The position numbers were made by a program, and so were the translations under genes. Below, in pieces: positions 3,889-54,586 of a stretch of 64,000 nucleotides of DNA. The notes beneath the pieces are model-generated. The model was given only the letters and a program-made list of their open reading frames with translations, made no database searches and had not been told where the DNA came from. Source of the stretch: a virus; the IMG/VR virus record IMGVR_UViG_3300028840_006907, positions 32,001 to 96,000 of that record; one strand, given 5' to 3'. Position 1 is the stretch's first letter. Each line of letters opens with the position of its first letter.

Positions 3889-4260
3889 CGGGAATTTCCA
3901 ACGAGTATTTTGAAAAAATTTATTCTCCCTGCAAAACCCGGAACCGATTTCCTAGTTCCTACAATCATATATTAATAATCTTTTGTTATCTGTATAAGTA
4001 AATTTACACAGGGTAATTGACTGATCAAAGTAAGTTAATGTCTTCCCAAACCGAGTCTTTGACTTGGGGAAATTGGTTGTTGACTGTAGAGAAGAATAAT
4101 TTCACTTGCTCATTTGGGTATTTGACTTGGGGAAACTGGTTCCCGACTATCAAAAGTGGGGTTAAAAACGAGGGGGGTTACCCCTAAATTTGATATTTCC
4201 AGACTGGGAACTCAGACAGGGGCGATTCCAGACTGTTTCTGGCCAGACTGGGGGAAAGAC

Positions 4261-4512
4261 CTAAGACGGTCTTAGTCCACTCATCCAAGACCATTGCCAT
4301 TTATCTGATCCGTAGCTCCAGACCTGGAATGACTTGGATAGAATTTTATATGTTACTGCCAGACAGAAAATGATCTTTGAGTCTCCACGTCCCAGGATTT
4401 CCTGGACACCGTGTAATCCACGGAACTCTAGGCTATCGGCTGATTTAATTTCGTTCTGAACTTCTATGGGAAGTTCATTCATGTTTATTTGATCTATACT
4501 TGTGATATGCAT
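4261..4512 (-). CDS. hypothetical protein
   Basis: ORF track; co-oriented. Confidence 0.35.
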   Translation of the reverse strand: MHITSIDQINMNELPIEVQNEIKSADSLEFRGLHGVQEILGRGDSKIIFCLAVTYKILSKSFQVWSYGSDKWQWSWMSGLRPS

Positions 4513-4703
4513 TAGTCTCTCAATGCCTCACAGGTAAGGGTAGCGGGAACTACTTCAAACTGAGTTCCAGGTTCAGTACCTTGTGTGAGTTCTACTGTAC
4601 GTATGCTGGCTATATTAAAGTCAGTATAGAACTCTGTGTTATCATCCCATGCGAATTTTTTATCTTTATTTATTATGATCCATCCTTGTAATTTCATAAT
4701 CAC
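4512..4703 (-). CDS. hypothetical protein
   Basis: ORF track; co-oriented. Confidence 0.35.
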   Translation of the reverse strand: MIMKLQGWIIINKDKKFAWDDNTEFYTDFNIASIRTVELTQGTEPGTQFEVVPATLTCEALRD

Positions 4704-4929
4704 CTCTCATTGTACGTTTAAATAGGTTTTCAGGCCATATCCAGACTGAAGAGGTATTCAGCTACCTCTCAGTTCCAGACAGGCTTAAAACAGGTTTATT
4801 CTTCTTCATCTTCGTGGTGTATGATTTCACCAGAAGTATATCCTTCTTTAATAAGTTCTGCTATGTGTTCTCTATCAAGATCGTTGAGTTCATCAACTCC
4901 AGAGAAGGTTAAATTCCACCATCCAGTCA

Positions 4930-5190
4930 TTAGTTTAACTCCTTGATACGTTTGTTAACGGTTATTACTGCTTGTTTATATGAACAGTTTGATTTATTCA
5001 TTTCCTGAGCATACCAGATAAGTCTGATAAAAGATACACAGGCGACTGCTCTGGCATGTTCACGTTCTTTCTTGGTTAATTCACCGGGATTGAAATGAAC
5101 TCCGGCAATAGTCGGGGTTGATAAGCTTCCAGGTGCACCAAATTGCTCAATCCCATACAATTGGTTATTGATTCTTTTGATTTCTGGCAT
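4930..5190 (-). CDS. hypothetical protein
   Basis: ORF track; co-oriented. Confidence 0.4.
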   Translation of the reverse strand: MPEIKRINNQLYGIEQFGAPGSLSTPTIAGVHFNPGELTKKEREHARAVACVSFIRLIWYAQEMNKSNCSYKQAVITVNKRIKELN

Positions 5191-5314
5191 AATTCTCTCC
5201 TTGATTGGGGGACACTGATTTAAGTTTTACCAGACAAGTCGATTCTGACTATTTTAGACTGAAATCCAGGCTGAATTTCCAGACTGATTTGGGGAACGGG
5301 ATTTCCAGACTGAA

Positions 5315-5482
5315 CTAGTCCGAATCTTCTAGGTTTGCAGATACTTCTCCATCGATTTCTTCAACATCGAAAGGATATTCAACAGAGATTTCGTCCTCAA
5401 GAGTTTCAATAGTACAGTTATCGGGTAAAGGATCTTGTACTTTAATTCTTCTATGAATAGTAATATTATAATAACGAGCCAT
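5315..5482 (-). CDS. hypothetical acidic protein (start moved to ATG 5482 with GGAGG SD)
   Basis: ATG at 5480-5482 preceded by GGAGG; track ORF 5315..5512 overlaps neighbour. Confidence 0.35.
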   Translation of the reverse strand: MARYYNITIHRRIKVQDPLPDNCTIETLEDEISVEYPFDVEEIDGEVSANLEDSD

Positions 5483-5496
5483 TGCTACCTCCAGGT

Positions 5497-5691
5497 TTAG
5501 GTTTGTTTCCAACCAAAGTTATATTTGCTACTCCAATTTTTATAAAGCAGTTTAATATTTAAGTGAGTATTTCGTTTGATAAATGTTTTTGCCTGTTTCA
5601 ATGCAGAGTTAAATGGTCGGTCTACAAAGAAAACTTTGGTTAATTTATTCTTGGAATCAGTATACTCAATTTTGTATTTCTGTTTATTCAT
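5497..5691 (-). CDS. hypothetical protein
   Basis: ORF track. Confidence 0.3.
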   Translation of the reverse strand: MNKQKYKIEYTDSKNKLTKVFFVDRPFNSALKQAKTFIKRNTHLNIKLLYKNWSSKYNFGWKQT

Positions 5692-6011
5692 TTTCTGATA
5701 TTATGTTGTTCTTTTTGATGAGTCACCCAGCTATCATAACCCAGACGGGTCTCCTCATTAGAGACAGCGAGTCTCCATTCTTTCATAGGAAAGTCGGGAT
5801 CTTCAGTTTCGAGTTTAGGATTTTGTTTGATGTAATCTGCTATGGATAATTCTTTTTCCAGTACACCTTCACACCCATCATTGGTAAGATTGACTTCGAC
5901 TATTTTATAACCATCTTCGTTTAATTGTTTATGTTTTATCATGATCTCTTTTAAGGATGAAGATGTGAAAGTAACTCTTTTAATGATTAAATCTTGGTTT
6001 TGGATCTTCAT
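5688..6011 (-). CDS. hypothetical protein
   Basis: ORF track. Confidence 0.4.
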   Translation of the reverse strand: MKIQNQDLIIKRVTFTSSSLKEIMIKHKQLNEDGYKIVEVNLTNDGCEGVLEKELSIADYIKQNPKLETEDPDFPMKEWRLAVSNEETRLGYDSWVTHQKEQHNIRK

Positions 6012-6017
6012 AAATTT

Positions 6018-6239
6018 TTACTCCTGGTTATTCTGTACGAGGAATGGGTGAAAACATCCATCTATGTATTGAAGTTTATACTCATCAGTTCCTTCTCTGA
6101 ATACAGTAGGTAAAGTTTCACCTTTATTATTCACATAAGCATTCCCTGTATAGTAATGATGCTTCTTATCAAATGTGAGACCGTATTTCTTACCTATGGC
6201 GGTCAGAGTCCTACGGGCTTTAACAATTTTATTATTCAT
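6018..6239 (-). CDS. hypothetical protein
   Basis: ORF track. Confidence 0.4.
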   Translation of the reverse strand: MNNKIVKARRTLTAIGKKYGLTFDKKHHYYTGNAYVNNKGETLPTVFREGTDEYKLQYIDGCFHPFLVQNNQE

Positions 6240-6525
6240 TTTCCTTTTTCTCCTTTAAGCTCTTTAATAATAATTCAGCTCTTACACTTTCTTTTAGGAT
6301 CTCTCCATAGTGTTCATGGCCTTCCGGGAATATGAAGTATTGGATAGCTTCTTTCTTGATTGGGCAATCGGCTTCGCCATCTTTTGTGGCTGAATAGAAG
6401 TGGGGATATTGACTATATCCGTTATCCCATTGCAGGGCATAGTATCGGTTAGTCTTTTTTGATTTATATATGTTCTTAAGGAATCCGGTATGACTATATA
6501 CAAATCTTAATTCTTGATAATCCAT
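6232..6525 (-). CDS. hypothetical protein; preceded by conserved upstream element
   Basis: ORF track; start codon directly follows repeated element at 6536-6557. Confidence 0.4.
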   Translation of the reverse strand: MDYQELRFVYSHTGFLKNIYKSKKTNRYYALQWDNGYSQYPHFYSATKDGEADCPIKKEAIQYFIFPEGHEHYGEILKESVRAELLLKSLKEKKENE

Positions 6526-6535
6526 ATTGGTTAAT

Positions 6536-6557
6536 CCTTTTTAAGAGATGTCAGATT
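6536..6557 (-). promoter_or_regulatory. conserved upstream element copy 1 (minus-strand reading AATCTGACATCTCTTAAAAAGG)
   Basis: Identical 22-mer at 6536, 6845 and 7252, each ending a few nt before a minus-strand start codon. Confidence 0.5.
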
Positions 6558-6579
6558 ATAACTTTTAGTTTCTTTTGAT

Positions 6580-6837
6580 TTATATGTTCTTAAGGATATC
6601 AATTAAGTCAGTTAATTCACATTCACAATAAATTGAATAATGTAGACCTTCTGCATCCAAAAAAGTTAATTTGGAATTAATTATTACTAGTTCCTCATAA
6701 TCAAATACATTTACTTTGATAGCGTTACTATCGATATGTTTTGATTTGGTCTTACTTTTATTGATCTCAGTTTTTAATGCTTCTTTAATTTCTTTTTCTA
6801 AATTATTGTATCGATTAAGTAAGTTTTGATATTTCAT
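6580..6837 (-). CDS. hypothetical protein; preceded by conserved upstream element
   Basis: ORF track. Confidence 0.4.
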   Translation of the reverse strand: MKYQNLLNRYNNLEKEIKEALKTEINKSKTKSKHIDSNAIKVNVFDYEELVIINSKLTFLDAEGLHYSIYCECELTDLIDILKNI

Positions 6838-6844
6838 AATATTT

Positions 6845-6866
6845 CCTTTTTAAGAGATGTCAGATT
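6845..6866 (-). promoter_or_regulatory. conserved upstream element copy 2
   Basis: Same 22-mer as 6536..6557. Confidence 0.5.
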
Positions 6867-6871
6867 GTCAT

Positions 6872-7243
6872 TTAATACTGGTTAGTTGTGATAGAGAAAG
6901 AATTATAACAACTACCAAAGACATTTTCGAATCCAGAATGACTAACTAGGTCACTGATTTTAACAGGGAGAGGTAACTTGTTAAATTCATTCTCTGTTAA
7001 TCCCAGGAAACTAAGTAGGTCATTTTTAGAGACCCAATCATATTCTTCCCAAAAATCTATATCAGCATTTACAGTGGCCCAATCAAATACACAATCGTTT
7101 GCTTTTTCTGCAACATTAACTTTATAGTAGAATCGATATTCATTTTCTTTCTTTATAAACTTCCATGCCAGACCGTATTCATAGAGAGATGTACCAAGAT
7201 CTGTATCTGTTCCTTCATATCCTTTGAGTTCTGATAAGTACAT
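6872..7243 (-). CDS. hypothetical protein; preceded by conserved upstream element
   Basis: ORF track. Confidence 0.4.
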   Translation of the reverse strand: MYLSELKGYEGTDTDLGTSLYEYGLAWKFIKKENEYRFYYKVNVAEKANDCVFDWATVNADIDFWEEYDWVSKNDLLSFLGLTENEFNKLPLPVKISDLVSHSGFENVFGSCYNSFSITTNQY

Positions 7244-7246
7244 AGT

Positions 7247-7498
7247 TTAATCCTTTTTAAGAGATGTCAGATTACAACTTTTAGTTTGTTTAAATTTAAT
7301 GATGAATTGATCAGGGTTATCGAGTCTTACTAGGACAGTACTGGATTCATATTCATATATGATAGCTCCAGACTGTCGTAGGTCGTTCAGTATTTCTGTC
7401 TCTGGGATATTAGTATCTTTAAAGTGATAGATACTATCATTCATACCGGTAGCTCTGGGGAATTTATTATTAGGGTTTTTTGTATATTTTACTGACAT
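7247..7498 (-). CDS. hypothetical protein
   Basis: ORF track. Confidence 0.4.
   Translation of the reverse strand: MSVKYTKNPNNKFPRATGMNDSIYHFKDTNIPETEILNDLRQSGAIIYEYESSTVLVRLDNPDQFIIKFKQTKSCNLTSLKKD
7252..7273 (-). promoter_or_regulatory. conserved upstream element copy 3
   Basis: Same 22-mer as 6536..6557. Confidence 0.5.
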
Positions 7499-7718
7499 TT
7501 TTTGTTAATCCTTTCTATTGGTTGTTATTTCATGTATACATAGAATTATGGCGGTAATAAAGCATATTCCCATAATTGGACCGATTGTCCATGACCATGA
7601 GAATGTTCCTATAGAACCTGCCATAATAGCCAGGATCATAATTATGCCTAGTGCGGTAGATATTTTTTCTTTCATGATGGGTATATCCTTTTTTATGAGT
7701 TACAAGATCTACTACAGT

Positions 7719-8375
7719 TTATTCCTCTTCTTTTTGTTTGAGTGAACAGAATTCACTTGCAGAAATAAGTTCTGTTACTGCATTGTATATTTCTAGGTCG
7801 TCATCACTTGGAACAAGTTCCTTTTCATACTCCAGAATAAATTCTAGGATACTTCCCATTTTATGTTCAATGTTTTCTATGTCTGGTAATCTTTTGATAT
7901 CTTCTAACCAGACATCTACATCATTACTATAGGATGAGATGAAACCGTCACAGCTAGTATAGATAGCTTTTAAGAAAGTAGAATAAGATTTAAGGACTTC
8001 TTTATTCTCAAAGAATTTTTTGATAGCTTCAAGATCAATTTCTACTTCAATATTTATCGAGTCGTTTTCATAGTTATACTGTTTAGGGGATGATACATTT
8101 TGTAGATTTATTTTAACAACATATGGTTTTAATTTCTTTTCTACAAATTCAACAAAGATTTTAGCGAGGGCTTTTTCATATCCTTCGTTATCGATTTCAA
8201 GATCATCATATTCGATTTCTTCATCCAGACTGTATCCTTTTTCTTTTCTTTCTTCATGATGCCAATCGTCATTTTCATTATAACCTTCTAATACTTTATC
8301 TGTATCCAGATCATACAGGGTATTATAGAACCCTGGAAAGAGAGGACACCAAGTTTCGATTTTAGTTGTTCTCAT
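7719..8375 (-). CDS. hypothetical acidic protein
   Basis: ORF track; 218 aa. Confidence 0.45.
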   Translation of the reverse strand: MRTTKIETWCPLFPGFYNTLYDLDTDKVLEGYNENDDWHHEERKEKGYSLDEEIEYDDLEIDNEGYEKALAKIFVEFVEKKLKPYVVKINLQNVSSPKQYNYENDSINIEVEIDLEAIKKFFENKEVLKSYSTFLKAIYTSCDGFISSYSNDVDVWLEDIKRLPDIENIEHKMGSILEFILEYEKELVPSDDDLEIYNAVTELISASEFCSLKQKEEE

Positions 8376-8677
8376 GATAATCCTCCAGACACTATAATTT
8401 CTCTTCTCTTTTCGAGATGGTGATATCTATGTCTTTTTATAATGGTTAGATCATAACCAATGCTTTCTAGTTCTTCTTTAAGATCTTTATATTCTTCGGG
8501 AGTAGCTAATCTACTTTCCTGAATGATCCCGTAAGGGTTACAGGCTCCGTGTTGGCCTATATGTTCATAAGACGAACAGGTCATAGGATTAGTATTTCCG
8601 GGTTCTTCGGGGAAGATAGCTATTACTTCGTTTGATATTTTCCAGAAACGGAAGATCACTTTAGTTTTGTTATTCAT
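8372..8677 (-). CDS. hypothetical protein
   Basis: ORF track. Confidence 0.4.
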   Translation of the reverse strand: MNNKTKVIFRFWKISNEVIAIFPEEPGNTNPMTCSSYEHIGQHGACNPYGIIQESRLATPEEYKDLKEELESIGYDLTIIKRHRYHHLEKRREIIVSGGLS

Positions 8678-8679
8678 AG

Positions 8680-8967
8680 TTAAGTCTCCTGTAGAGCGAT
8701 TTGAAATCTATTGGTATACTTCTGTATCTCTTTAGCGTATCTCTCATCACTCATAGTTTGGTTGTCGATTATTCTAATTTCTAGTACTTCTGAATCTTTA
8801 GTAAAAGTATTTATCATGGTAGTCTTGGTAATAGGGTAATATCCTTTCCAGTGTTTCACTATAAAGACTAAAGCCTCTTCTTTTATTACCCACTGTCTAC
8901 CGTACAATAAATCATGCTTTTTCATATCTTGGAGTATGTTTTCGAGTTTTATCCATGTTAATTTCAT
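8680..8967 (-). CDS. hypothetical protein
   Basis: ORF track. Confidence 0.4.
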   Translation of the reverse strand: MKLTWIKLENILQDMKKHDLLYGRQWVIKEEALVFIVKHWKGYYPITKTTMINTFTKDSEVLEIRIIDNQTMSDERYAKEIQKYTNRFQIALQET

Positions 8968-8968
8968 A

Positions 8969-9331
8969 TTATTTCACACACTTGTAACAGTGATTCATAA
9001 TAGTTGTGATGTTTGTATTAAAGAGTTTAACAAAGAAGTCTTTCTTATCATTATTAATAAGATATTCATAGACCGTATTAACTACATTGGCACTAAAGAG
9101 ATCCAGTAATACACCATCTACTAAAAGGCATTGTTTCTTTTTCAGTACCCATTTAATAGCGAGGATCTTTTTGATTTTACTACCATTAGTTTTACAGGTA
9201 TAATCTTTTACTGTATCGAGTATTTCTAATTTATCCTCACATGTACCATCATACCACCAATCCTTTATGATTTCAATTTCGTATTCTTTTAATTCGTTTT
9301 CGTTCATTGGATTTACTAATGTTGATGCCAT
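8969..9331 (-). CDS. hypothetical protein
   Basis: ORF track. Confidence 0.4.
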   Translation of the reverse strand: MASTLVNPMNENELKEYEIEIIKDWWYDGTCEDKLEILDTVKDYTCKTNGSKIKKILAIKWVLKKKQCLLVDGVLLDLFSANVVNTVYEYLINNDKKDFFVKLFNTNITTIMNHCYKCVK

Positions 9332-9427
9332 TATATGTTCTCCTTGTTATAATTACCTGGAACAGGTAGAGTTAAAAATATATATTACGTATTAGAAGTG
9401 CTTGAGTCGCGCTTTAAGGCATGGAGT

Positions 9428-9456
9428 AAGCCCGACCTTTACGGACAGTCGGGCTT
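9428..9456 (-). terminator. intergenic 9-bp-stem hairpin (AAGCCCGAC / GTCGGGCTT), terminator- or processing-site-like
   Basis: GC-rich inverted repeat directly downstream of minus-strand gene 9466..10086; no clear U-tract. Confidence 0.3.
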
Positions 9457-9465
9457 CTCTATGCA

Positions 9466-10086
9466 TTACCAGTCCCAGCACCGGGCACATTCCAAACATC
9501 CCGATACTTCATGCCAGACTGCAAGACAGTCCAGAGGATGTTTAGGAACGTTTTTAACTACTGAACCATGACAGTGGTAGGGAAATACTATAATGATTCG
9601 GGGATCATCTGGAACAGTATCTACGTCTCTCCTAGGGCCAAAACACATCTTACCTGGAAATTTACTCCAGACTTTCTTTGGAGTTGTAGCATCGATACTT
9701 AATAATAATCTGAGATTAGGTAATTGATCATTAATGACCTTTGCTATTTCAGGTTTCCTTGTCATGCCATAGAACATAGTTTTAGGGCATTCATTAGCGA
9801 GGTTAATAATATTATTCACGTGATCAGGTAATAGATCACCACATCCATTTAAACGTACTGCATGACAGTTTTTACATTCGACTATGACTTTGAGTAGATC
9901 ATTACCGGTGAAGTAATCAGAAACATAGTTCTGTTTTTTCACGGTATTGGGTAAAGCCATATGTCCGGATCGGGCATAGCAAAGTTTCTGACATAACTTA
10001 CTAGGTCTACAATGCCCTTTCATGGGAAAGTTTATTGAGACACCAGTTTTCTTGTTTTCAGAAATGATAGTTAATGGAGTATACAT
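9466..10086 (-). CDS. hypothetical Cys-rich protein
   Basis: ORF track; 206 aa; multiple Cys/His. Confidence 0.45.
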   Translation of the reverse strand: MYTPLTIISENKKTGVSINFPMKGHCRPSKLCQKLCYARSGHMALPNTVKKQNYVSDYFTGNDLLKVIVECKNCHAVRLNGCGDLLPDHVNNIINLANECPKTMFYGMTRKPEIAKVINDQLPNLRLLLSIDATTPKKVWSKFPGKMCFGPRRDVDTVPDDPRIIIVFPYHCHGSVVKNVPKHPLDCLAVWHEVSGCLECARCWDW

Positions 10087-10482
10087 ACTTATACCTCCTG
10101 TTAATATGTAACATTGTTCTTAATTTTATTCATATATTAAAGACTCTCTCGTATACTATCTTGAGAGAGGATTTTTCGAATTGATATTTATTTACTGAGC
10201 GAGTAATTGTTGTTGAATTTAATGAAATTTTAAGTACCCCAATGTGCGTGTAAGTAAATTTGAATTTTTCTGTGATAACAGACTGAAAACACTTAGGGAT
10301 GAAAACTGTAAGTACCGTCCCCCAAATAGGGCTAGGGAGGTTATTTTGTATCTGAGAAATCAGATTTGGAAAGTAAAAATAATAATATTTTTCTACTCTT
10401 TTTTGATCTTTTATAATAAATTATAAACGAGTCTCCAGGACATTCAGACCGTCTTGTGAGAAAATGATGAGTTAAATAGTTT

Positions 10483-10560
10483 GCGCCCCCTGGAAGCTGA
10501 AAACCGAGGGGGCGCATTAACACAAATAAAGGAACGCCCTCAAAAGAGGGTGTCACCCTT
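10483..10560 (-). terminator. GC-rich hairpins downstream of 10628..11926 (GCGCCCCCT..AGGGGGCGC; CCCTC-loop-GAGGG plus T-rich run)
   Basis: Inverted repeats seen in an otherwise AT-rich spacer. Confidence 0.3.
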
Positions 10561-10627
10561 TATCTACTTAATATATCCTGAATCAACCAAAAAGTCAACT
10601 TTAATATTTCCAACACTTTATAATAAA

Positions 10628-11926
10628 TTACACGTTATAGTTCTCATTAACTGTTTCAGTTTTCTCAAATTCCTTTTTTAATAATGAGATACCATACATG
10701 CCTACGTCTGGTTGAAAGATTAATAGACGTTCATATTTAGTTCTGCCTTTTGAGAATTTCACTTTATCTCTGACAGAATCGGGGATTTCAGAAATACCAA
10801 AGAGGAGCTTATTAAGAAATTCATATTCTGCATAGAATTGATTCTTTTCATTTTCTTTATAAGATCTTTCTTTCATAAGATTAAGGATAGATCTTTCATT
10901 ACCATCAAATTTCTTTAAGAAGTTAGCATTAACAGTAAACTTCTTAGGTGATTTATATTCTTTCCATTCAACACCTTTCATCCAGTGCGGGAAAGGTTTA
11001 TCAGGATTGGCATATCTAAAGTTGGCGTATTCTTCACCACGAATATAGAACTGTAATTGAGATTTGATCTTATATGTTAGCCATTTCTTTCTTTTAACGA
11101 CTTCTACTAGAGTATCTTGGTTAAGGGGCATCATAGCATATTCCCCGACCAAGGGAGGAATATCTACTTCATAGGTGACTGATTTAATTTTAATTTTTTT
11201 CTCGTTACCAAGTTTAGTAGTTTCAGGCCATTCCTTTTTCTCTTCGGGAGGTAAGACAATACCTTTATCGTTCATAAGTTTAATAAGTCCACCAAGATAT
11301 TGTATTTCATCTTCCAGACGGGCTAGGGCTATTTTAATTACAAAGTAATTAGAGGAGAAGATATTAAATCTTCTTTGAGGAGCTATAAAATTATTAAAGG
11401 TTATCTTTCCATTGGAAGCTAGTTTAATAAAGAACTCGTTCTCTTTTGCAGTGGGCATGAACTCTATACGTTCCCAACCTTCATACCATTCACCGTCTAC
11501 ACCTACAACATTAAAGACTCGGAAGTCTCCGGTATCATCGAACTTCATGATATTAACATCAACTATTCTCATACCAAAAGACCAAAGATCTTTAGCACAA
11601 GAAAGGCCAACGACTTTACCGTGTCTATTTTCTTTTGAGACAAGGTGCTGTCCATCTTTTAAGACTGTGCCTCTCATGGCATGGTACTTAGATATATTGA
11701 TCACGGCATTACGTGACATAAAGTTATACATTGCAGACTGAAGATCGAGAGTAGTTCCGGTATAATTACCTTCAGCATCACAGACTGTTGTAGGATTTTT
11801 ACTGAATATATCGGGAATAAGACTTTTAACTAAGGTCTCATAATCTACATCCTGAGACCTGTTAATAAGAGTTTTTACGAATGGTTCTTTTAATATGTTT
11901 TTTAGTTTTTCAGGTACTTTCTTCAT
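10628..11926 (-). CDS. hypothetical protein (432 aa)
   Basis: ORF track; a KDG tripeptide is present but a ligase call is not supported. Confidence 0.5.
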   Translation of the reverse strand: MKKVPEKLKNILKEPFVKTLINRSQDVDYETLVKSLIPDIFSKNPTTVCDAEGNYTGTTLDLQSAMYNFMSRNAVINISKYHAMRGTVLKDGQHLVSKENRHGKVVGLSCAKDLWSFGMRIVDVNIMKFDDTGDFRVFNVVGVDGEWYEGWERIEFMPTAKENEFFIKLASNGKITFNNFIAPQRRFNIFSSNYFVIKIALARLEDEIQYLGGLIKLMNDKGIVLPPEEKKEWPETTKLGNEKKIKIKSVTYEVDIPPLVGEYAMMPLNQDTLVEVVKRKKWLTYKIKSQLQFYIRGEEYANFRYANPDKPFPHWMKGVEWKEYKSPKKFTVNANFLKKFDGNERSILNLMKERSYKENEKNQFYAEYEFLNKLLFGISEIPDSVRDKVKFSKGRTKYERLLIFQPDVGMYGISLLKKEFEKTETVNENYNV

Positions 11927-12023
11927 AATGAATATCCTTTTAAAGATTACGGTTCGGTATCATATATTATACGAGATTTAGGAAAGAAAGTGATAAGAAA
12001 AAAATTTAATTATTTATTTAAGT

Positions 12024-12542
12024 CTAACCTTTCGAGGTATTTAAAGATTTAATATAATCCTTTCGTTTTGTATGATATTCTGTATAAACAAAAGGAATCT
12101 CAATAAATTGTTTCCCATACCAAGACTGGCCTTTAACATTACTTAATTGAACCTTAATATTCTGAGGAAACTCATAGTTATCCATCAACCACTTCCAGAC
12201 TTCTTCAGAGAAAAGGATATGTAGGTCAGAACAATAATTATTCATGTTCTCCTCTGGAATATTAAACATTTCTTGTAATAATTTTTTCCAGGTCATATCT
12301 AATTGATCCAAGATATCTTTCTTATCCTTTTTAGTAAGGATATAATCACACCCGTCCCCAAGGGGGACAAAGCCAGACTTAAGAGCGTGTATGGCTTTGC
12401 CTCCGGCATCGGTGGTTCCGTATAATTCAGAGGAGCATTGAAAATTAATTGATCCATCTTTATAAACTGTTATGGGAGTCTTTCTTTTAATAGTCATAAT
12501 AATCTCCAGGTTAATTGGTGAATAACCAGACTGTCGGTTCAT
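12024..12542 (-). CDS. hypothetical protein
   Basis: ORF track. Confidence 0.4.
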   Translation of the reverse strand: MNRQSGYSPINLEIIMTIKRKTPITVYKDGSINFQCSSELYGTTDAGGKAIHALKSGFVPLGDGCDYILTKKDKKDILDQLDMTWKKLLQEMFNIPEENMNNYCSDLHILFSEEVWKWLMDNYEFPQNIKVQLSNVKGQSWYGKQFIEIPFVYTEYHTKRKDYIKSLNTSKG

Positions 12543-12720
12543 AAGGTTTATTGTGGAGGTCTAACTTACCACGTAGATTCTTATGAAGGACTTTTACTGT
12601 TCGATAAGTTTTCTTATTAAGTTTAGCTTCTTTCAAAGCCTCTTCATAAGATTTACCAATTACTTTTCTTAATATCTTACCATTTACTTCTATTGATTCG
12701 GGTAGATTACATTGAATCAT
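12511..12720 (-). CDS. hypothetical protein
   Basis: ORF track. Confidence 0.35.
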   Translation of the reverse strand: MIQCNLPESIEVNGKILRKVIGKSYEEALKEAKLNKKTYRTVKVLHKNLRGKLDLHNKPYEPTVWLFTN

Positions 12721-12983
12721 AATCCCTCCTGTTCTTTATCTATCCATTCAGTTTCTATCTCAGTAAGAGCATTAATTAATTCTCTCATATGAGATATAGG
12801 AACTTCGATGAAACATTTTCCAGGTTGACCTTTACTTGTTATAGGTCTAATTTCTATGAAAGGTCTTTCACCTTCGAATGGACTTTCAAATTGCCCCAGA
12901 CTGAGACCGGAACATTTAAAAGAACCGTTACGTCCTAAGAACTTAGAATGATATCCGTCAAATTTAAAAGTTTTCTTTATCAT
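12717..12983 (-). CDS. hypothetical protein
   Basis: ORF track. Confidence 0.4.
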   Translation of the reverse strand: MIKKTFKFDGYHSKFLGRNGSFKCSGLSLGQFESPFEGERPFIEIRPITSKGQPGKCFIEVPISHMRELINALTEIETEWIDKEQEGL

Positions 12984-12997
12984 GATTTAATCTCCTG

Positions 12998-13567
12998 TTA
13001 GAGTTTTAATTCTTGTTGAATACCTTCAGTTTTTTCAATATGGTCTATATCGTGATCAATAATGCTTCGAGTATCGGGTAGTAACCCACTCTTTTCATGA
13101 TCATATCCAAAGAAGCCCCAGCAAGAGTGGATCTCTTCACCATCTTTATTTTTAACAATGTATCCGTAGACAGCATCTGTTAATAGACAGTCATAGGTCT
13201 CAACTTCAGACCGAAGAATATCTTTAATCTTTTCGATACGTTCTTCATTAAGTTCTGTCCAATTAAATTCAGACAGGGCTTTGCTTTTCTCTACGTAGAT
13301 CCAACCGACTTGACCACTGTCCCAAGGACAGTCAAAGCCAGTCGTATTCATGGTTAAACCACTGTGATCATATAGATACAGGGGTAGATAGATAACGTCC
13401 TCAAAGGGTATCGAATCGACGTCATATGGTGCGCCTTTATCATTGAAGTCGTAGCGTCTATGTTTAGATACCATTGATCCAAAATTATCCCATTCTGTTC
13501 TAGGGTTCAAGGGATCTTCATCAACATGAATTTCAATTGTGTAGTTTTTATATTTTATAGTTTCCAT
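12998..13567 (-). CDS. hypothetical protein
   Basis: ORF track. Confidence 0.45.
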   Translation of the reverse strand: METIKYKNYTIEIHVDEDPLNPRTEWDNFGSMVSKHRRYDFNDKGAPYDVDSIPFEDVIYLPLYLYDHSGLTMNTTGFDCPWDSGQVGWIYVEKSKALSEFNWTELNEERIEKIKDILRSEVETYDCLLTDAVYGYIVKNKDGEEIHSCWGFFGYDHEKSGLLPDTRSIIDHDIDHIEKTEGIQQELKL

Positions 13568-13722
13568 AATACCTCAATACCTCTCTTTTATTAAATATAA
13601 TTAACTGGAATGATTTGACTTAGATATATTTTATATATAATGGGGTGGTCATCCCCGGATTTACCGGGGCTGTCTCTGGGAGAATCGATACAAATGGCGG
13701 TGATTTAGACCACTCCATTTTA

Positions 13723-13980
13723 TTAGACATAGATATATTCTATAGCGGAATGTACAAGATAATAGCATCTTTGACCGTCATAAGTACTTTTATAGTACGC
13801 TACATGCCAGTCTTTTTTAATACTAGGGATGCACGTTCCTGTATATCCAAACTGTTCATTGACTTCTTGGAGGGAGACGTGTTTAAAGAAAGTATTGGCT
13901 GTTATCTTTCTTCCGTTATCAGTCATATCGTTAATAAGTTCTGCTGTGCTTGCAACACAGCATGTTAAATATTCATACAT
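13723..13980 (-). CDS. hypothetical protein
   Basis: ORF track; preferred over overlapping plus-strand ORF by strand-block consistency. Confidence 0.3.
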   Translation of the reverse strand: MYEYLTCCVASTAELINDMTDNGRKITANTFFKHVSLQEVNEQFGYTGTCIPSIKKDWHVAYYKSTYDGQRCYYLVHSAIEYIYV

Positions 13981-14198
13981 GATTTACCTCCAGACTGGGT
14001 ATAACAATTATCTTCACAAGTTCCACCACGTCCAAGTCTATCACAAGCAATGCCATAATCTACTGGGCATATTTCAAGGTTAGATTTAATCTTTCGGTAA
14101 TCGTGGTGTTCACAACTGCGACAAATTGAACCATTTTGAGTGGTATCATTTCCAAGTTTATTACATATACTACCATTAACCGGACATTCTCTAGGCAT
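13965..14198 (-). CDS. hypothetical Cys-rich small protein
   Basis: ORF track; many Cys. Confidence 0.35.
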   Translation of the reverse strand: MPRECPVNGSICNKLGNDTTQNGSICRSCEHHDYRKIKSNLEICPVDYGIACDRLGRGGTCEDNCYTQSGGKSCMNI

Positions 14199-14745
14199 TG
14201 TTACTTCTCCTTATCGTTATGATATTAGTTTTCTTCTTTTTCTTGACTCCAGACTTCTTTTGTCTCTGAAATTCATAGTAACTTTCCATATCACGAAGTT
14301 CAATCTCACCTTTCTTCACATACTTATGAAGCAGTGAAATAAATCCGGTAACCTGGAAGATTGCAGTCTTACTAGATAACTTATCTTTAATTTCCAGACA
14401 GGCATCTTCGTGTATCTCTCCATTAAGAGCGATAAACTCCTGTCTCATTAAATCTTTCTCCCAATCTTCCAGACTGCGTTTCTTTTCAATCTTGTGCCCG
14501 TTCTTAGATCCTTTAGGGATACGGGGGTCGAGTTCTTTATCTGTTTTCTCAGATACAGATTTAGTTGGAAGTTCCAAAGTGGTTTGTACTGGTGTTTTAA
14601 GTTCTTTCTGTTCAGGTTTAGAAGTATTCATCTTCTCTTGAACCATTGCAGGAATGATAACTTTTTTAACGAAGGTTAAAACGATAGTTCTATTTTCATC
14701 ATTGATTAAATCAAGTGTAGAATTTAAAAGATCATTAGTATTCAT
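14191..14745 (-). CDS. hypothetical protein
   Basis: ORF track. Confidence 0.4.
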   Translation of the reverse strand: MNTNDLLNSTLDLINDENRTIVLTFVKKVIIPAMVQEKMNTSKPEQKELKTPVQTTLELPTKSVSEKTDKELDPRIPKGSKNGHKIEKKRSLEDWEKDLMRQEFIALNGEIHEDACLEIKDKLSSKTAIFQVTGFISLLHKYVKKGEIELRDMESYYEFQRQKKSGVKKKKKTNIITIRRSNNA

Positions 14746-14877: not shown

Positions 14878-16008
14878 TTAACCAACAAGATCTAAGATCT
14901 TATCAAGGGTTTCATTCTTTTCTTTCATTTGAACTGTAGGATTAGGATTATGTGAAGTCTCTTCAGGAGATTCAATTAATTCCAATACAGTTTCGAGAGC
15001 ATTGGATTTTAATTGAGCACCACTACCTACCCACGCACTATCGGCACGGGCTTGTTCTTGAGTAGTATATCCAGACGTAGATGTTACTCTACTAGGTCTT
15101 TTATGATCCACGTAATTAGTAACAGCATTCACCAAAGCCATACCCGTTCCAGCTTGTTCCGGGATAGCATTATCATCATTATCATTAAATAGTTTAGCTA
15201 TCTCAAGGGCTTTATCAGATTTCTTATCTGATTGTTCCCATTTCTCACCAAAGATACGAGTCATAGTCTGTGCAAAAAGTTCTTTGGTAACTTTATGAGT
15301 AATAATCTTTTCAAACTTTTCTTTAAGAGAATTTATATCCTGTTTTAATCCGGTTTGAATCTCAGTGGTTATTTTATTAAGTTTCTCTTTAGCACCTTTG
15401 GTATGTCTTACTTTAATCATTGCATCCTTAGTGCCTTTAGATAAGGCAAAATTCAAAGTGTTCTGACATACTACCCGTACATCGGTGAGCATAATTGTAT
15501 TACTCATAGTTCCATCATGAGCACTCATAAACATGATAAATGTTTCGTGTTTATCATTTCCGATGGAAGCGTTAAAGGGGACACGGGCCAAAGCCCAGAC
15601 ACGTTCTCCACGTCCTAAAACTCCGGCAGCTTCATAATGTGCACCATCAATCTGTTCTAAGACATTATCAATCCATCCACCGATTTCAATATTTTGCGTA
15701 GGTTCATAGGTATTACCTACGATACCAAGGGCGCTTTCCTTACCAGTTAAATCGGAACGAAAGATACCAAATTGATTCGGGAAAACATATCCTTTAGGTA
15801 CAGTGCTTCCAGGTTTCCATAAAGGATTCTTAAAGAATAACGGCCTTTTTTCGACCGTCCAATCTAATTGAGCCAGTTCATAAGCTTCTTTCCAGGTCAT
15901 TGCATGATTGACCATTTGTCCTAGTTCATGCCACGGTAAACCATGTTCATCTATGGCATATGCAGCCGATACTAAACCGTTTTTTGCTGTAAATAAATTA
16001 TGAGCCAT
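14878..16008 (-). CDS. phage/plasmid-like protein, possibly DUF932 family
   Basis: 376 aa; overall resemblance from memory to DUF932/TIGR03299 proteins; unverified. Confidence 0.45.
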   Translation of the reverse strand: MAHNLFTAKNGLVSAAYAIDEHGLPWHELGQMVNHAMTWKEAYELAQLDWTVEKRPLFFKNPLWKPGSTVPKGYVFPNQFGIFRSDLTGKESALGIVGNTYEPTQNIEIGGWIDNVLEQIDGAHYEAAGVLGRGERVWALARVPFNASIGNDKHETFIMFMSAHDGTMSNTIMLTDVRVVCQNTLNFALSKGTKDAMIKVRHTKGAKEKLNKITTEIQTGLKQDINSLKEKFEKIITHKVTKELFAQTMTRIFGEKWEQSDKKSDKALEIAKLFNDNDDNAIPEQAGTGMALVNAVTNYVDHKRPSRVTSTSGYTTQEQARADSAWVGSGAQLKSNALETVLELIESPEETSHNPNPTVQMKEKNETLDKILDLVG

Positions 16009-19572: not shown

Positions 19573-19915
19573 CATGAATAATGAAAAAAGTTTAGTAACT
19601 TTCCGAAGTTTTAAGAAACTTTTTCTTTGACGTTTGTTTTTTGTGGCTTTCATGAGTAATGAAAAAAGTTTAGTAACTTTCCGAAGTTTTAAAAATTTTT
19701 TCTTTCATGTAAACTTTTCCTTGTCTACATGAGTAATGAAAAAAGTTTAGTAACTTTCCGAAGTTTTAAAAATTTTTTCTTTCATGTAAACTTTTCCTTG
19801 TCTACATGAGTAATGAAATTAGTTTGGTAACTTTCCGAAGTTTTAAAAATTTTTTCTTTCATGTAAACTTTTCCTTGTCTACATGAGTAATGAAATTAGT
19901 TTGGTAACTTTCCGG
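19573..19915. repeat. tandem repeat, 77-78 bp unit, about 4.4 copies
   Basis: Unit starts (catgag/catgaa) at 19573, 19651, 19728, 19805, 19882. Confidence 0.85.
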
Positions 19916-20397: not shown

Positions 20398-20628
20398 CAG
20401 GGAACAGGGAACTGAGCACAGGGAACTGAGCACAGGGAACCGAGCACAGGGAACCGAGCACAGGGAACTGAGCACAGGGAACTGAGCACAGGGAACTGAG
20501 CACAGGGAACCGAGCACAGGGAACCGAGCACAGGGAACTGAGCACAGGGAACCGAGCACAGGGAACTGAGAACAGGGAACCGAGCACAGGGAACTGAGAA
20601 CAGGGAACTGAGAACAGGGAACCGAGCA
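20398..20628. repeat. tandem repeat, 14 bp unit (cacagggaac[t/c]gag), about 16-17 copies
   Basis: Direct reading; two unit variants differing at one T/C position. Confidence 0.85.
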
Positions 20629-20872
20629 CCTGTATCTGTGATCTCGGAAAAGTTTCGGGAAAAAAATCGGGAACGGCTCAGGGCTGAGAAATAGGTATGA
20701 ATTTTTTTGGGGTATAATTTTTGGAGTTAAACAGTTGGGGAAATTGGAGTTATCTTATGTGAGGTGATGGGATAGTTTATGGAGGGTGAAAATTTTTTGG
20801 TATAGTTTGATGGAGAAACAGGTATAATACTTATAGGACGGAAAAATTTAAGTCTAATGGTTCGAGGATCTT

Positions 20873-38923: not shown

Positions 38924-39682
38924 TTGGAGACATCTGTGAAGTATAGCGTACTTGTACCCTACTATAAACGCCTAGGGCACCTACATAATACCTTTATTTC
39001 CTTTCTACACCATTATTCAGATAGAAATGATTATGAGGTTGTCATAGCAGAAGATTATAAAAATGTCCAGAATAAAAAAGACCATGACGGTCTATCAGAA
39101 ACCATTGAGAAATTCCGTGAAAAAATACCGATAATTCATTTAACTCTTTCTATGGAAACCTGGAATCCAGCTCATGGTTTTAATGAAGCTGCAAAGTGGG
39201 CTTCTGGTGAATATTTCGTTGTAACCAATCCAGAATGTTTCCATCAAGTGAACATACTGGCTGGACTCGATAAAGAATTTGAAGAAGACCCCAATGTCTA
39301 TGTTGTATGTGGTTGTATGAATTATGTCCGTTGTAATTTTTTTATTAAAAACTTTAATGATCTAAATGGAAAATTTCAGAGATGGTACCAACACTCAATA
39401 CATAGAGCAGCCCACTATCATTTCTGTTCAGCTATTTCAAAACAGAATTGGGTAAAAATAGGAGGATTCGATGAAGACTTTGCTATGGGTATAGCCTATG
39501 ATGATGTCGATTTTAAATTAAGCATTCAAAAAGCCAAGATACCCTTTCATATCCGGGATGACCTTCTTACTATACATATTGACCATGGTTCCTTCCCATC
39601 TCCTCCAAATGCTCAGAAATTAGTTAATCGAAATAGAATCACCTATCAAAGAAAATGGGAAGGAAGTAATGAATCTTACTAG
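38924..39682 (+). CDS. putative family-2 (GT-A) glycosyltransferase
   Basis: N-terminal YSVLVPYY and GGFDEDFAMGIAYDDVDF segments resemble GT2 signatures; start codon uncertain (TTG 38924 or GTG 38936). Confidence 0.5.
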   Translation: METSVKYSVLVPYYKRLGHLHNTFISFLHHYSDRNDYEVVIAEDYKNVQNKKDHDGLSETIEKFREKIPIIHLTLSMETWNPAHGFNEAAKWASGEYFVVTNPECFHQVNILAGLDKEFEEDPNVYVVCGCMNYVRCNFFIKNFNDLNGKFQRWYQHSIHRAAHYHFCSAISKQNWVKIGGFDEDFAMGIAYDDVDFKLSIQKAKIPFHIRDDLLTIHIDHGSFPSPPNAQKLVNRNRITYQRKWEGSNESY

Positions 39683-43983: not shown

Positions 43984-44019
43984 TCTAGGAATGTAAAGTA
44001 TTAGAGGATTATTAAGGGG

Positions 44020-47018: not shown

Positions 47019-47127
47019 ACTAAGTCATAATGCCATTCAAATCAAAGGTTTATAGGAACCCTAATTTTCTACCAAAGAAAAATGTACTTGTCATGTATAA
47101 ATGTCAAAGAGCGTCAGAGAGAAATCC
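47019..47127 (-). promoter_or_regulatory. CRISPR leader 1, with a ~55-bp core shared with leader 2
   Basis: accctaattttctaccaaa...tataaatgtcaaagagc shared with 54587..54683; contains TTGACA on minus strand. Confidence 0.5.
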
Positions 47128-49359: not shown

Positions 49360-49444
49360 TGTCTTTTTCCTCTCAAATAAGTCCTGGAAAGCCTTTTCAG
49401 GGGCTTTCCAGGATTAATGTACTGTGTATTCTATATCAACACTT

Positions 49445-49600
49445 TCAATCGTTTTTATCAATCTCCGTGGCTAATACCGACATAAATGACATTCCGGTTC
49501 CTCCTGGTAATTCAATAATAGAAGGTCTTTTGATGTTCTCTTCTAAATTCCTAGAAGCGAGTTGCCAAGAATAGGCTTTTATAGTTTTTGTATTATTCAT
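49445..49600 (-). CDS. small ORF (51 aa) between cas6e and helicase, unknown
   Basis: ATG at 49598-49600 with TGGAGA SD; no motif. Confidence 0.25.
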   Translation of the reverse strand: MNNTKTIKAYSWQLASRNLEENIKRPSIIELPGGTGMSFMSVLATEIDKND

Positions 49601-49628
49601 TTTAAAATCTCCATATAAAAGGTTTATT

Positions 49629-50273
49629 TTAATAAGATTTATACGGTGCAATAAGCATCATACCACATCCGAAACCTTTACTCTTACCAATTCCATTATA
49701 AATAGTATTCACAAAAAGATTTTTATTGACTACCTGAAGGACTCCTCGTAAATCAATACTGAAAAAAGATACAACTTTACCATCTTTTTTTTTGAATTTA
49801 CAGAATTGAAAAGATTGAACGGAATGCTTTTGAATCATATTTTTAAAACCGTAACTTTGGCCACGTTTCTGAAGCCAATTCTTTGAGGATTCGTGAGCAA
49901 TGAAATTCCAATTATAGGGTTCATCAAGAACTTTCATTTCATTTGCCAGATCCGTCATGATTGAAACCTTTTTCCTGGTTTTCAATTTACAAACTTCGGC
50001 ATTGAGTCTGAGATCGTATTGAAGAAATATTCCAGATTTTAAATTATTTAAATCGAATACTTTTGTTTGTGTAGTGTATTCGTCCTCTGGAGGATTTGGT
50101 TTCTTTTTTGATATGATATAAAGTTCACCATTATAGAGATAATAAAGGAAATCTCTTACCCTGTTAGATCTTTGATCACCAAAAAATTCCCAGACTTTTT
50201 GATGAAGCTCATATATACCTTCGGTGGGAGAATATCTTCTCAAGCTGTCACTGTAAATTTTACTCAGAAACAT
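49629..50273 (-). CDS. cas6e: Cas6e (CasE) crRNA endoribonuclease
   Basis: MFLSKIYSD..YELHQKVWEFF..RDFLYY and C-terminal GIGKSKGFGCGMM match recollected E. coli CasE; start moved to ATG 50273. Confidence 0.75.
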   Translation of the reverse strand: MFLSKIYSDSLRRYSPTEGIYELHQKVWEFFGDQRSNRVRDFLYYLYNGELYIISKKKPNPPEDEYTTQTKVFDLNNLKSGIFLQYDLRLNAEVCKLKTRKKVSIMTDLANEMKVLDEPYNWNFIAHESSKNWLQKRGQSYGFKNMIQKHSVQSFQFCKFKKKDGKVVSFFSIDLRGVLQVVNKNLFVNTIYNGIGKSKGFGCGMMLIAPYKSY

Positions 50274-50910: not shown

Positions 50911-50933
50911 AATATTATAACTCCTGGTAACAA

Positions 50934-52019: not shown

Positions 52020-52045
52020 AAATACTCCTTGATATTTATTATTTA

Positions 52046-54264: not shown

Positions 54265-54586
54265 GACAGCCCCGGTAAAGTCCAGGGAAATAAAAATTAG
54301 TGATAATTCGGGAATCAGCAGGAGGAGAGCATCAGCCCTGCGTATGCGGGGAATAGTGTTATCGTCTTACAGGATGTAAAGCAGAGACAGCCCCGCGTAT
54401 GCGGGGAATAGAAATTAATACATCTCATAAAATCTAGCATCAGCCCCGCGTATGCGGGGAATAGTTATTTATCTATACTTCCTACAACTCCCATAACGCA
54501 TCAGCCCCGCGTATGCGGGGAATAGCTCGTTGGTTTTCCCATTCCACAAAAGTTCAACGCATCAGCCCCGCGTATGCGGGGAATAG
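54265..54586 (-). CRISPR. CRISPR array 2: 6 repeats (distal one degenerate), repeat gcatcagccccgcgtatgcggggaatag, spacers 25-33 nt
   Basis: Repeat copies at about 54265, 54329, 54385, 54437, 54498, 54559; 61-bp period for the three leader-proximal units. Confidence 0.85.

What the first reader, a model, noticed from the sequence alone, without database searches (positions are those of the whole stretch)
6455..7275. Repeated 22-45-bp element in front of three consecutive small genes
The 22-mer cctttttaagagatgtcagatt (plus strand) recurs at 6536, 6845 and 7252, each time ending a few nt before a minus-strand start codon and overlapping the previous stop; copies 1 and 3 extend to about 45 bp. 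A second repeat (ttgatttatat(at)gttcttaagga) sits at 6455 and 6571 inside neighbouring coding sequence. This resembles the promoter/stem-loop cassettes that flank shuffled small genes in hyperplastic phage regions.
Basis: partly seen in the sequence, partly recalled or inferred. Interest (0 to 1): 0.5.

Follow-up and report, generated by a model that had tools for sequence, protein, structure and literature searches.

The report
Triplicated gene junction flanking two orphan genes
The repeat is three copies of one gene-to-gene junction (the end of one small gene, a ribosome-binding site and the first codons of the next), left by recombination that placed two orphan genes in a hypervariable phage-like region; it is not a promoter/stem-loop cassette.

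Summary
The repeat is real. On the coding (minus) strand, the 23-mer AATCTGACATCTCTTAAAAAGGA occurs exactly three times (6535-6557, 6844-6866, 7251-7273). Nothing else in the 64 kb matches, even with 3 mismatches. It sits 6-9 nt upstream of the ATGs of three consecutive small genes (123, 85 and 97 aa).

Three related metagenomic contigs explain it. The 23-mer is the last codons (NLTSLKKD*) of a conserved small gene family, here the 83-aa gene, and these codons also encode the Shine-Dalgarno sequence of the next gene. In two relatives this gene is followed directly by the 97-aa family gene through a single junction.

In the window the junction is triplicated. Two genome-specific orphan genes (123 and 85 aa) lie between the copies. 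The start of the 85-aa gene resembles the 5' region of the 97-aa gene, and its 3' end contains a copied piece of that region; the 123-aa gene shows the same pattern more weakly.

There is no stem-loop, no promoter signal above chance and no Rfam match. The best explanation is short-homology recombination, which leaves a ready-made stop, ribosome-binding site and start at each junction. This is a modest variant of known phage cassette shuffling.

The parts
7251..7273 (-). Junction copy J3 (core AATCTGACATCTCTTAAAAAGGA). Here it is coding: it supplies the last codons, N-L-T-S-L-K-K-(D*), of the 83-aa gene, and it contains the SD AAGGA for the 123-aa gene.
   Evidence: The tail is conserved at the protein level in three relatives.
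6844..6866 (-). Junction copy J2. It is now non-coding (5 nt after the 123-aa stop). The old tail frame is still open (NLTSLKKEIL*) and ends in an ATGA stop/start overlap with the 85-aa gene. It supplies that gene's SD.
6535..6557 (-). Junction copy J1. It is a non-coding relic of the 83-aa-family tail (frame YKSKETKSYNLTSLKKD*). It supplies the SD of the 97-aa gene.
   Evidence: (hhalign of the tail against the family profile, E 5.6e-5).
7247..7498 (-). 83-aa gene, the owner of the tail. Residues 26-81 are homologous to 63-67-aa genes in L003, L004 and L005. Residues 1-34 are homologous to the N-terminus of a different, 118-aa gene of L003, so the gene is itself a fusion.
   Evidence: In-frame codon usage supports coding.
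6872..7243 (-). 123-aa orphan gene between J3 and J2. Its first ~65 nt resemble the 5' end of the 97-aa family (2 of 2000 shuffles). A 16-nt piece near its 3' end (6929-6944) matches 97-aa codons 10-15 (14/16 nt). The body is unique.
   Evidence: The AlphaFold model has low confidence (pLDDT 49).
6580..6837 (-). 85-aa orphan gene between J2 and J1. Its first 6 codons (MKYQNL) match the start of the L005 97-aa-family gene at 17 of 18 nt, but this short match alone is not significant (113 of 2000 shuffles). Its last codons (DILKNI*) are a copy of 97-aa codons 14-19. Its stop was created by a 2-nt TA deletion.
6565..6596 (-). Second-repeat copy A: a partial duplicate of 97-aa codons ~14-26. It joins the 83-aa-type tail within the shared motif AAAGAAACTAAAAG, which is the chimeric crossover point.
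   Evidence: D8, D13, D20. (0 of 2000 shuffles). (82% identity to the L004 97-aa homologue).
6449..6482 (-). Second-repeat copy B: native coding sequence of the 97-aa gene (GFLKNIYKSKKT). It is conserved in four homologues.
6232..6525 (-). 97-aa gene. It follows the 83-aa-family gene directly in L004 and L005, which is the inferred ancestral arrangement. It also occurs in an unrelated gene neighbourhood in L002.

Best explanation
The repeat is one gene junction present in three copies.

**What the unit is.** The unit consists of:
- the C-terminal coding tail of the 83-aa gene family (...TK-S-C-NLTSLKKD*);
- the Shine-Dalgarno sequence AAGGA, which those last codons also spell out;
- a 6-9-nt spacer;
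- the ATG and the first ~6 codons of the 97-aa gene family.

**Inferred history.** The ancestral order, kept in two related contigs, is 83-aa gene, one junction, 97-aa gene. In those relatives a ~32-nt direct repeat already exists 116 nt apart: YK-ETK-Y in the tail and YKSKETKRY at codons 20-30 of the 97-aa gene.

In the window's lineage, recombination duplicated the junction. It acted at this short homology and then at the junction itself. It could have been unequal crossover between concatemeric copies, or single-crossover integration of circular cassettes. Two genome-specific orphan genes (123 and 85 aa) now lie between the copies. They borrow their start from the 97-aa gene's 5' region, and the 85-aa gene also borrows its end.

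**How it works now (inferred, not shown).**
- Each copy stops the upstream reading frame. Stop codons occur in all three frames within 27 nt.
- Each copy offers an unstructured, A-rich SD 6-9 nt before the next ATG, so whatever lands between two copies is translated.
- The three perfect 23-28-bp direct repeats, 309 and 407 bp apart, are substrates for precise loss, gain or exchange of the cassettes.
For: **Tail is native coding sequence.** A HMMER search with the 83-aa protein found P0005 (50% identity over residues 26-81). Homologues in L003, L004 and L005 keep the tail K(Q/E)TK(T/S)Y..SSL..E* and an SD before the next ATG.

**Synteny.** L004 and L005 share the flanking genes in the same order: 432-aa gene, GP88..., 83-aa family, 97-aa family..., 86-aa family.
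- In both, a single junction joins the 83-aa and 97-aa families.
- L004 carries the 32-nt, 78%-identical direct repeat 116 nt apart (D1).
- This matches the 116-nt spacing of the window's second repeat (D13).

**Relics in the window.**
- The J1 tail frame reads YKSKETKSYNLTSLKKD* but is cut off by a 2-nt deletion.
- The 5' end of the 85-aa gene matches the L005 97-aa homologue at 17 of 18 nt.
- The 5' end of the 123-aa gene aligns to the 5' end of the L004 homologue (2 of 2000 shuffles).

**Copies arose or were homogenised in this lineage.** All three window copies share at least 6 base states in the core that none of the three relatives has.

**The two inserted genes.** Their bodies are unique: there are no homologues among 5.8 billion proteins, in the rest of the window or in the relatives. 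Both have the genome's in-frame codon usage.

**Region is hypervariable.** Five relatives each carry different genes upstream of the 86-aa anchor.

**No regulatory signal found.** No RNA structure, no promoter excess and no Rfam family.
Against: - The core is 23/23 identical in three copies, while the adjacent first codons are only ~65-80% identical. A simple single-age duplication does not predict this. It needs gene conversion, crossovers confined to the core, or selection on the nucleotide sequence.
- The origin of the two orphan gene bodies is unknown.
- Only three relatives carry the junction, and all of them are short metagenomic contigs.
- No expression or recombination data exist.
- Similarity between the 3' end of the 123-aa gene and the 97-aa 5' region is weak (71 of 2000 shuffles).
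Confidence: 0.75

Rival explanations
1. The 23-mer is a dedicated cis-regulatory RNA or DNA site. It could be a translational operator, a target for an RNA-binding protein or small RNA, or a processing site. It would co-regulate the three consecutive genes and be kept identical by selection.
For: The core is perfectly identical (23/23) in three copies while the flanks have diverged. It sits exactly on the translation initiation region. It is the only such repeated gene start found in 1-43,500.
Against: - Orthologous junctions in L003-L005 differ from the core at about 40% of positions and change like coding sequence, for example a synonymous TCT to TCC change.
- Neither half of the motif recurs elsewhere in the window above chance.
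- There is no secondary structure and no dyad symmetry.
- Duplication already accounts for the presence of the copies.
Confidence: 0.12
2. The copies are PeSL-like promoter/terminator cassettes. Each would start transcription of the next small gene and terminate the previous one.
For: The copies flank orphan genes in a hypervariable region. Copy 1 has TATAAT abutting the core, and copy 2 gives a 10/12 sigma-70 match.
Against: - There is no stem-loop (z of 0.26 or higher).
- Promoter-like matches are at chance density.
- The TATAAT is not kept in the other copies: TGTAAT in copy 3 and GACAAT in copy 2.
- The element is coding sequence at copy 3.
- The strand-specific motif that is conserved between genes in this block is a different one, CAGTCTGGA.
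Confidence: 0.04
3. The 123-, 85- and 97-aa genes are tandem whole-gene paralogues that have diverged beyond recognition except at their ends.
For: The N-termini are similar (MDYQEL, MKYQNL, MYLSEL) and pieces of the 97-aa 5' region occur near the 3' ends of the other two genes.
Against: - No pairwise or profile similarity exists between the gene bodies.
- The 97-aa family is well conserved across relatives (56-73% identity), whereas the other two genes have no homologues at all.
- The 97-aa-like pieces at the 3' ends come from the 5' region of that gene, not from its 3' end.
Confidence: 0.06
4. The copies are attachment or target sites of a site-specific system (integron-like cassette, homing element or transposon) that moved the two genes.
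For: Direct repeats lie precisely at the cassette boundaries.
Against: - There are no inverted repeats or hairpin.
- The small genes of this block (p56 to p107, p86 and p218) gave no recombinase or endonuclease hit in Pfam, and those scanned against PHROGs gave none either.
- The repeat is ordinary coding sequence plus an SD in the relatives.
Confidence: 0.03

Closest known systems
PeSL (promoter-early stem-loop) cassettes of T4-type phages (PMC2839356, PMC4122927)
   Same: Both are short direct repeats that flank orphan genes in hyperplastic regions. Recombination between copies explains gene insertion, deletion and replacement, and can release circles carrying one chimeric repeat plus the gene.
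   Different: PeSLs are intergenic and consist of a consensus sigma-70 promoter, an AT-rich UP region and a stable stem-loop terminator. This element has none of these. Instead it is a C-terminal coding tail, an SD, a start codon and the first codons of the next gene, so it supplies translational rather than transcriptional signals.
Start-associated sequences (SAS) of Cluster K mycobacteriophages (PMC3203893)
   Same: Both are asymmetric conserved sequences immediately upstream of start codons that include the ribosome-binding site, lie in one orientation, and precede genes of unrelated families.
   Different: SAS are 13-bp motifs, and site numbering in the paper reaches at least 19 in one genome. 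They are distributed along the genome maps and conserved across all three subclusters. Here there are only three adjacent copies. The sequence is not conserved at the nucleotide level in relatives, and a local duplication explains its origin.
Short conserved 'linker' or boundary sequences at gene junctions in mosaic phage genomes (modular-evolution model; cited from general knowledge, not checked here)
   Same: Homologous exchange at short sequences located at gene boundaries joins unrelated gene bodies.
   Different: Here both the unduplicated ancestral state and the duplicated state are visible, together with the pre-existing 32-nt internal repeat that probably seeded the first event.

Membership tests
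PeSL cassette | Strong sigma-70-type early promoter (-35, -10, AT-rich upstream region) inside the repeat | tested here: not met
   32 promoter-like sites in 8 kb against 32.7 expected. Only copy 2 scores (CTGACA-16-TATTAT), and its -10 lies in non-repeat sequence that overlaps the ATG.
PeSL cassette | Stable stem-loop acting as a terminator | tested here: not met
   minimum free energy -1.4 to -6 kcal/mol, z +0.26 to +1.87 against shuffles; no terminator-like site at any copy.
PeSL cassette | Flanks orphan genes in a hyperplastic region, with indels between relatives bounded by the element | tested here: met
   L004 and L005 have one junction and lack the 123- and 85-aa genes; other relatives have different gene content.
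PeSL cassette | Recombination between copies yields deletions or mini-circles | not testable with these tools
   This needs reads from the source sample or inverse PCR.
Start-associated sequence (SAS) | Conserved asymmetric motif immediately upstream of the start codon that includes the RBS | tested here: met
   the core ends 6-9 nt before each ATG and contains AAGGA.
Start-associated sequence (SAS) | Many dispersed copies per genome in front of unrelated genes | tested here: not met
   three adjacent copies only in 64 kb. The rest of the ~470-kb genome was not available.
Start-associated sequence (SAS) | Motif conserved at the nucleotide level across related genomes | tested here: not met
   orthologous junctions of L003-L005 differ at about 40% of core positions; no true match to the core in three public collections.
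Integron attC / site-specific cassette | Imperfect inverted repeats that form a hairpin, with an associated recombinase | tested here: not met
   (no inverted repeat or structure). (no recombinase or endonuclease hit among the small genes of this block: p56 to p107, p86 and p218).
Tandem paralogous gene array | Detectable homology between the bodies of the neighbouring genes | tested here: not met

The most novel reading that the evidence does not exclude
The duplicated junction acts as a 'gene nursery'. Each copy is a portable module of stop codons, an SD, an ATG and a few first codons. It turns whatever sequence lands or drifts between two copies into an expressed ORF. On this reading, the 123- and 85-aa orphan genes were assembled in place, or captured and immediately expressed, by borrowing the start and end of a neighbouring gene. 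The perfect identity of the core would be maintained because it is the active crossover site for continuing gain and loss of cassettes in a huge-phage population.
Probability: 0.2. Interest if true: 0.6.

Novelty: new variant of a known kind. Interest (0 to 1): 0.3.

Why it matters
This is a clean, internally documented example of how orphan genes accumulate in the accessory regions of very large phage-like genomes. Several stages are visible together:
- the unduplicated ancestral junction;
- the short pre-existing homology that probably seeded the first event;
- the chimeric relics left behind;
- the resulting new genes.

It shows that translational junctions can serve as shuffling points, not only promoter/terminator cassettes. 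It also gives a testable route by which new ORFs acquire start signals.

It does not reveal a new kind of regulatory element.

Tried and rejected
**Searches for the core or relatives that found nothing useful**
- Exact 20-23-mer searches for the core in IMG/VR, JGI metagenomes and GTDB genomes found no true match. The one hit, L001, is an unrelated bacterial contig and is a chance match.
- blastn of 5000-9000 against INPHARED phages gave no match.
- The search for related loci gave nothing in IMG/VR with the 432-aa, 218-aa, 86-aa-family and 97-aa-family queries, and nothing in GTDB genomes with the 97-aa family.

**Protein searches**
- A concatenated query of the four small proteins found only the 97-aa homologue P0001.
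- A second concatenated query of neighbouring genes found only a domain match to the 101-aa gene.
- PHROGs and Pfam gave nothing informative for the small genes.
- Look-ups of the window's own proteins (the 123-aa and 83-aa genes, P0003, P0012) returned no contig, so the source record could not be read.

**RNA and structure**
- Rfam gave nothing at the gathering threshold or at E up to 1.
- The single-sequence AlphaFold model of the 123-aa protein had pLDDT 49, so no fold search was run.

**Ideas rejected**
- T7-type phage-polymerase promoter: only three clustered copies exist, and the sequence is coding in relatives.
- An SD-sequestering hairpin (AAUCU pairing with GGAUU): it is weak and absent in copy 2.
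- Whole-gene tandem duplication: the gene bodies are unrelated.

Full report
**1. Observation**

The plus-strand 22-mer occurs exactly at 6536, 6845 and 7252. Nothing else in the 64 kb matches with up to 3 mismatches (expected 0.02).

- All three copies share 23 identical nt (D1).
- Copies 1 and 3 align over 57-69 nt at 87-89% (D2, E 8e-15).
- Copy 2 aligns with the other two over 47-57 nt at 79-83%, from the left edge of the core into the first ~6 codons of the downstream genes.
- Neither half of the core recurs elsewhere above chance.
- No other repeated gene start was found in 1-43,500.

The second repeat is also real: 6449-6482 and 6565-6596, with a 2-nt TA indel (D8, D13, D20).

**2. Anatomy**

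All genes in this block are on the minus strand and tile it. In order of transcription they are:

| Gene | Coordinates |
|---|---|
| 83 aa | 7247-7498 |
| 123 aa | 6872-7243 |
| 85 aa | 6580-6837 |
| 97 aa | 6232-6525 |

On that strand the core reads AATCTGACATCTCTTAAAAAGGA. It contains the Shine-Dalgarno sequence (SD) AAGGA, 6-9 nt before each ATG.

- At copy 3 (J3) the core is coding. It gives the last codons of the 83-aa gene, C-N-L-T-S-L-K-K-D-stop.
- At copies 1 and 2 (J1, J2) it lies downstream of the stop of the upstream gene, but the same frame is still open: YKSKETKSYNLTSLKKD* at J1 and NLTSLKKEIL* at J2. The J2 frame ends in an ATGA stop/start overlap.
- The core plus the next 4 nt carries stop codons in all three frames.

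All four ORFs have the in-frame codon usage of the window's long genes. Overlapping alternative ORFs do not.

**3. Tests of the promoter/stem-loop idea**

- The three junction RNAs fold no better than shuffles (z +0.52, +1.87, +0.26).
- Sigma-70-like sites are at chance density (32 found, 32.7 expected). Only copy 2 scores, and its -10 lies in non-repeat sequence. No terminator-like site sits at any copy.
- Rfam gives nothing at the gathering threshold or at E up to 1.

PeSLs are defined as a consensus sigma-70 promoter plus a stable stem-loop terminator (PMC2839356). Those two features are not met here.

**4. Relatives**

DNA searches for the core and for the region found no true match. Protein searches were more useful.

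(a) *The 97-aa gene.* It has a homologue, P0001, at about 60% identity on the Logan contig L002, among otherwise unrelated genes. The alignment starts at M1 of the window gene. The segment GFLKNIYKSK, which is the second repeat at 6449-6482, is native to this family.

(b) *The 83-aa gene.* An exhaustive HMMER search found P0005 (67 aa, 50% identity over residues 26-81) on JGI contig L003.

(c) *The 86-aa gene.* This conserved gene (4930-5190) served as an anchor. It led to L004 (ENA) and L005 (Logan), and to the short contigs L006-L008.

L004 and L005 are syntenic with the window:
- They align with it from the 432-aa gene and GP88 (PF17338) through to the 86-aa gene.
- L004 also carries DUF932 upstream, as the window does.
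- Aligned blocks are 65-77% identical at the nucleotide level.

**5. What the relatives show**

- *The tail is native coding sequence.* In L003, L004 and L005 the 83-aa-family gene ends K(Q/E)TKTY..SSL..E*, followed by an SD and the next ATG. This matches the window's KQTKSCNLTSLKKD*. The core is therefore the C-terminal coding sequence of this family plus the next gene's ribosome-binding site.
- *It evolves like coding sequence.* Between genomes there are, for example, a synonymous TCT to TCC change and T/S exchanges. Relatives differ from the window core at about 40% of positions.
- *Single junction in relatives.* In L004 and L005 the gene is followed directly by the 97-aa-family gene through one junction. 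In L003 it is followed by an unrelated 49-aa gene that still begins MDEIEKL.
- *Pre-existing repeat.* L004 already contains a 32-nt, 78%-identical direct repeat 116 nt apart. One copy is in the tail (TAAATATAAAGAGACTAAAACTTATAAAGTAT). The other is at codons 20-30 of the 97-aa gene (D1). The window's two second-repeat copies are also 116 nt apart (D13).

**6. Reconstruction (inferred)**

Unequal crossover between those two short similar sequences would duplicate the segment made of tail, SD, ATG and 97-aa codons 1-24. The window carries the chimera this predicts.

- At 6596-6529 the sequence reads D-I-L-K-N-I-(Y)-K-S-K-E-T-K-S-Y-N-L-T-S-L-K-K-D*. The left part is 97-aa-type and the right part is tail-type, joined in the shared AAAGAAACTAAAAG.
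- A 2-nt deletion in an (AT)n run now ends the 85-aa ORF early, which leaves the J1 tail as a non-coding relic.
- The first 18 nt of the 85-aa gene match the L005 97-aa homologue at 17 of 18 positions.
- The first ~65 nt of the 123-aa gene align to the 5' end of the L004 homologue (2 of 2000 shuffles).
- A 16-nt piece near the 3' end of the 123-aa gene matches 97-aa codons 10-15. This match is weak (71 of 2000 shuffles).
- The gene bodies between these borrowed ends are unique.
- All three window copies share at least 6 core states absent from every relative. The triplication, or a later homogenisation, therefore happened in this lineage.

*Remaining puzzle.* The core is 23/23 identical while the adjacent first codons are only 65-80% identical. 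This calls for gene conversion, crossovers confined to the core, or nucleotide-level selection. I cannot separate these possibilities. That uncertainty is why the regulatory-site rival keeps about 0.12.

**7. Context**

- The stretch upstream of the 86-aa anchor has different genes in each of the five relatives.
- The 83-aa gene is itself a fusion. Residues 1-34 match the N-terminus of a 118-aa gene of L003, which in L003 lies about 650 nt upstream of P0005.
- The exact 83- and 86-aa proteins are recorded on three public contigs, the longest 469,617 bp. The source is therefore a huge phage or a similarly large element.

**8. Comparison with known systems and verdict**

- In function the element resembles PeSL-mediated shuffling, since it consists of direct repeats bounding orphan-gene cassettes. 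It fails the two structural PeSL criteria.
- In position it resembles the start-associated sequences of Cluster K mycobacteriophages (PMC3203893). It lacks their dispersal and their conservation across genomes.
- It is best described as a recombination-generated triplication of a translational gene junction. This is a modest new variant of a known theme, with an unusually complete trail of intermediates.
- Interest 0.3. Confidence in the origin model about 0.75. The functional statements (translation start module, active shuffling site) are inferred and were not tested.

Noticed in passing
window 47128-53989 (minus strand); 44000-47100; 54388-54525: The window carries type I-E-like CRISPR-Cas genes: Cse1/Cas8e at 52046-53989 (PF09481, 4.6e-48), Cas7 (CT1975-like) at 50934-52019 (1.1e-52), and a helicase at 47128-49359. 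A GC-rich 3-kb stretch and a short array are full of degenerate hairpin repeats (..CCCCGC....GCGGGGAA..) at irregular spacings, many of 49-62 nt but some over 200 nt, unlike a regular CRISPR array.
   Followed up: partly
window 4198-14476 (minus strand), clusters at 5262-5314 and 4190-4240; L003-L008: The 9-mer CAGTCTGGA occurs 9 times against 0.4 expected. All copies are on the gene strand and all lie in the leftward small-gene block. Clusters sit in the intergenic spacer upstream of the 86-aa gene, and they are conserved at the same positions in six related contigs. It is likely the real promoter- or operator-type motif of this block.
   Followed up: partly
window 7394-7498 vs L003 81-182: The 83-aa gene is a fusion. 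Its first ~34 residues match the N-terminus of a 118-aa gene that, in L003, lies about 650 nt (more than two genes) upstream of the gene matching its C-terminal part.
   Followed up: partly
window 19573-19914 and 20404-20629: There are a 77-nt tandem repeat (4.4 copies, 93% identity) and a 14-nt tandem repeat (16 copies) at the switch between the minus-strand and plus-strand gene blocks. This may be an origin of replication or a regulatory region.
   Followed up: no
window 4055-4085 / 4118-4148 and 4171-4185: A 31-nt direct repeat (GTCTTTGACTTGGGGAAATTGGTTGTTGACT) and a GC hairpin lie in a non-coding stretch. The region aligns with L003 1850-1978 and L004 8732-8829 at 71-73% identity.
   Followed up: no
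window 7501-7517: The junction between the 56-aa and 83-aa genes (AGAAAGGATTAACAAAAAATG, upstream gene ending ..RKD*) shares the K-D-stop/SD arrangement with J1 and J3 but lacks the upstream 15 nt. It may be an older copy or a convergent solution (D4).
   Followed up: no
L002 1250-2900: The Logan contig carrying the distant 97-aa homologue has a ~1.6-kb G-rich, low-complexity stretch (GGGAAGGGGA-type repeats) with no convincing ORFs.
   Followed up: no
window 39669-41762, 38924-39682, 14878-16008, 9466-10086: Other annotated genes in the window: a 697-aa protein with a radical-SAM domain and a weaker match to an anaerobic ribonucleotide-reductase large subunit, a family-2 glycosyltransferase, a DUF932 protein and a GP88-family protein. 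No tRNA genes were found in the 64 kb.
   Followed up: no
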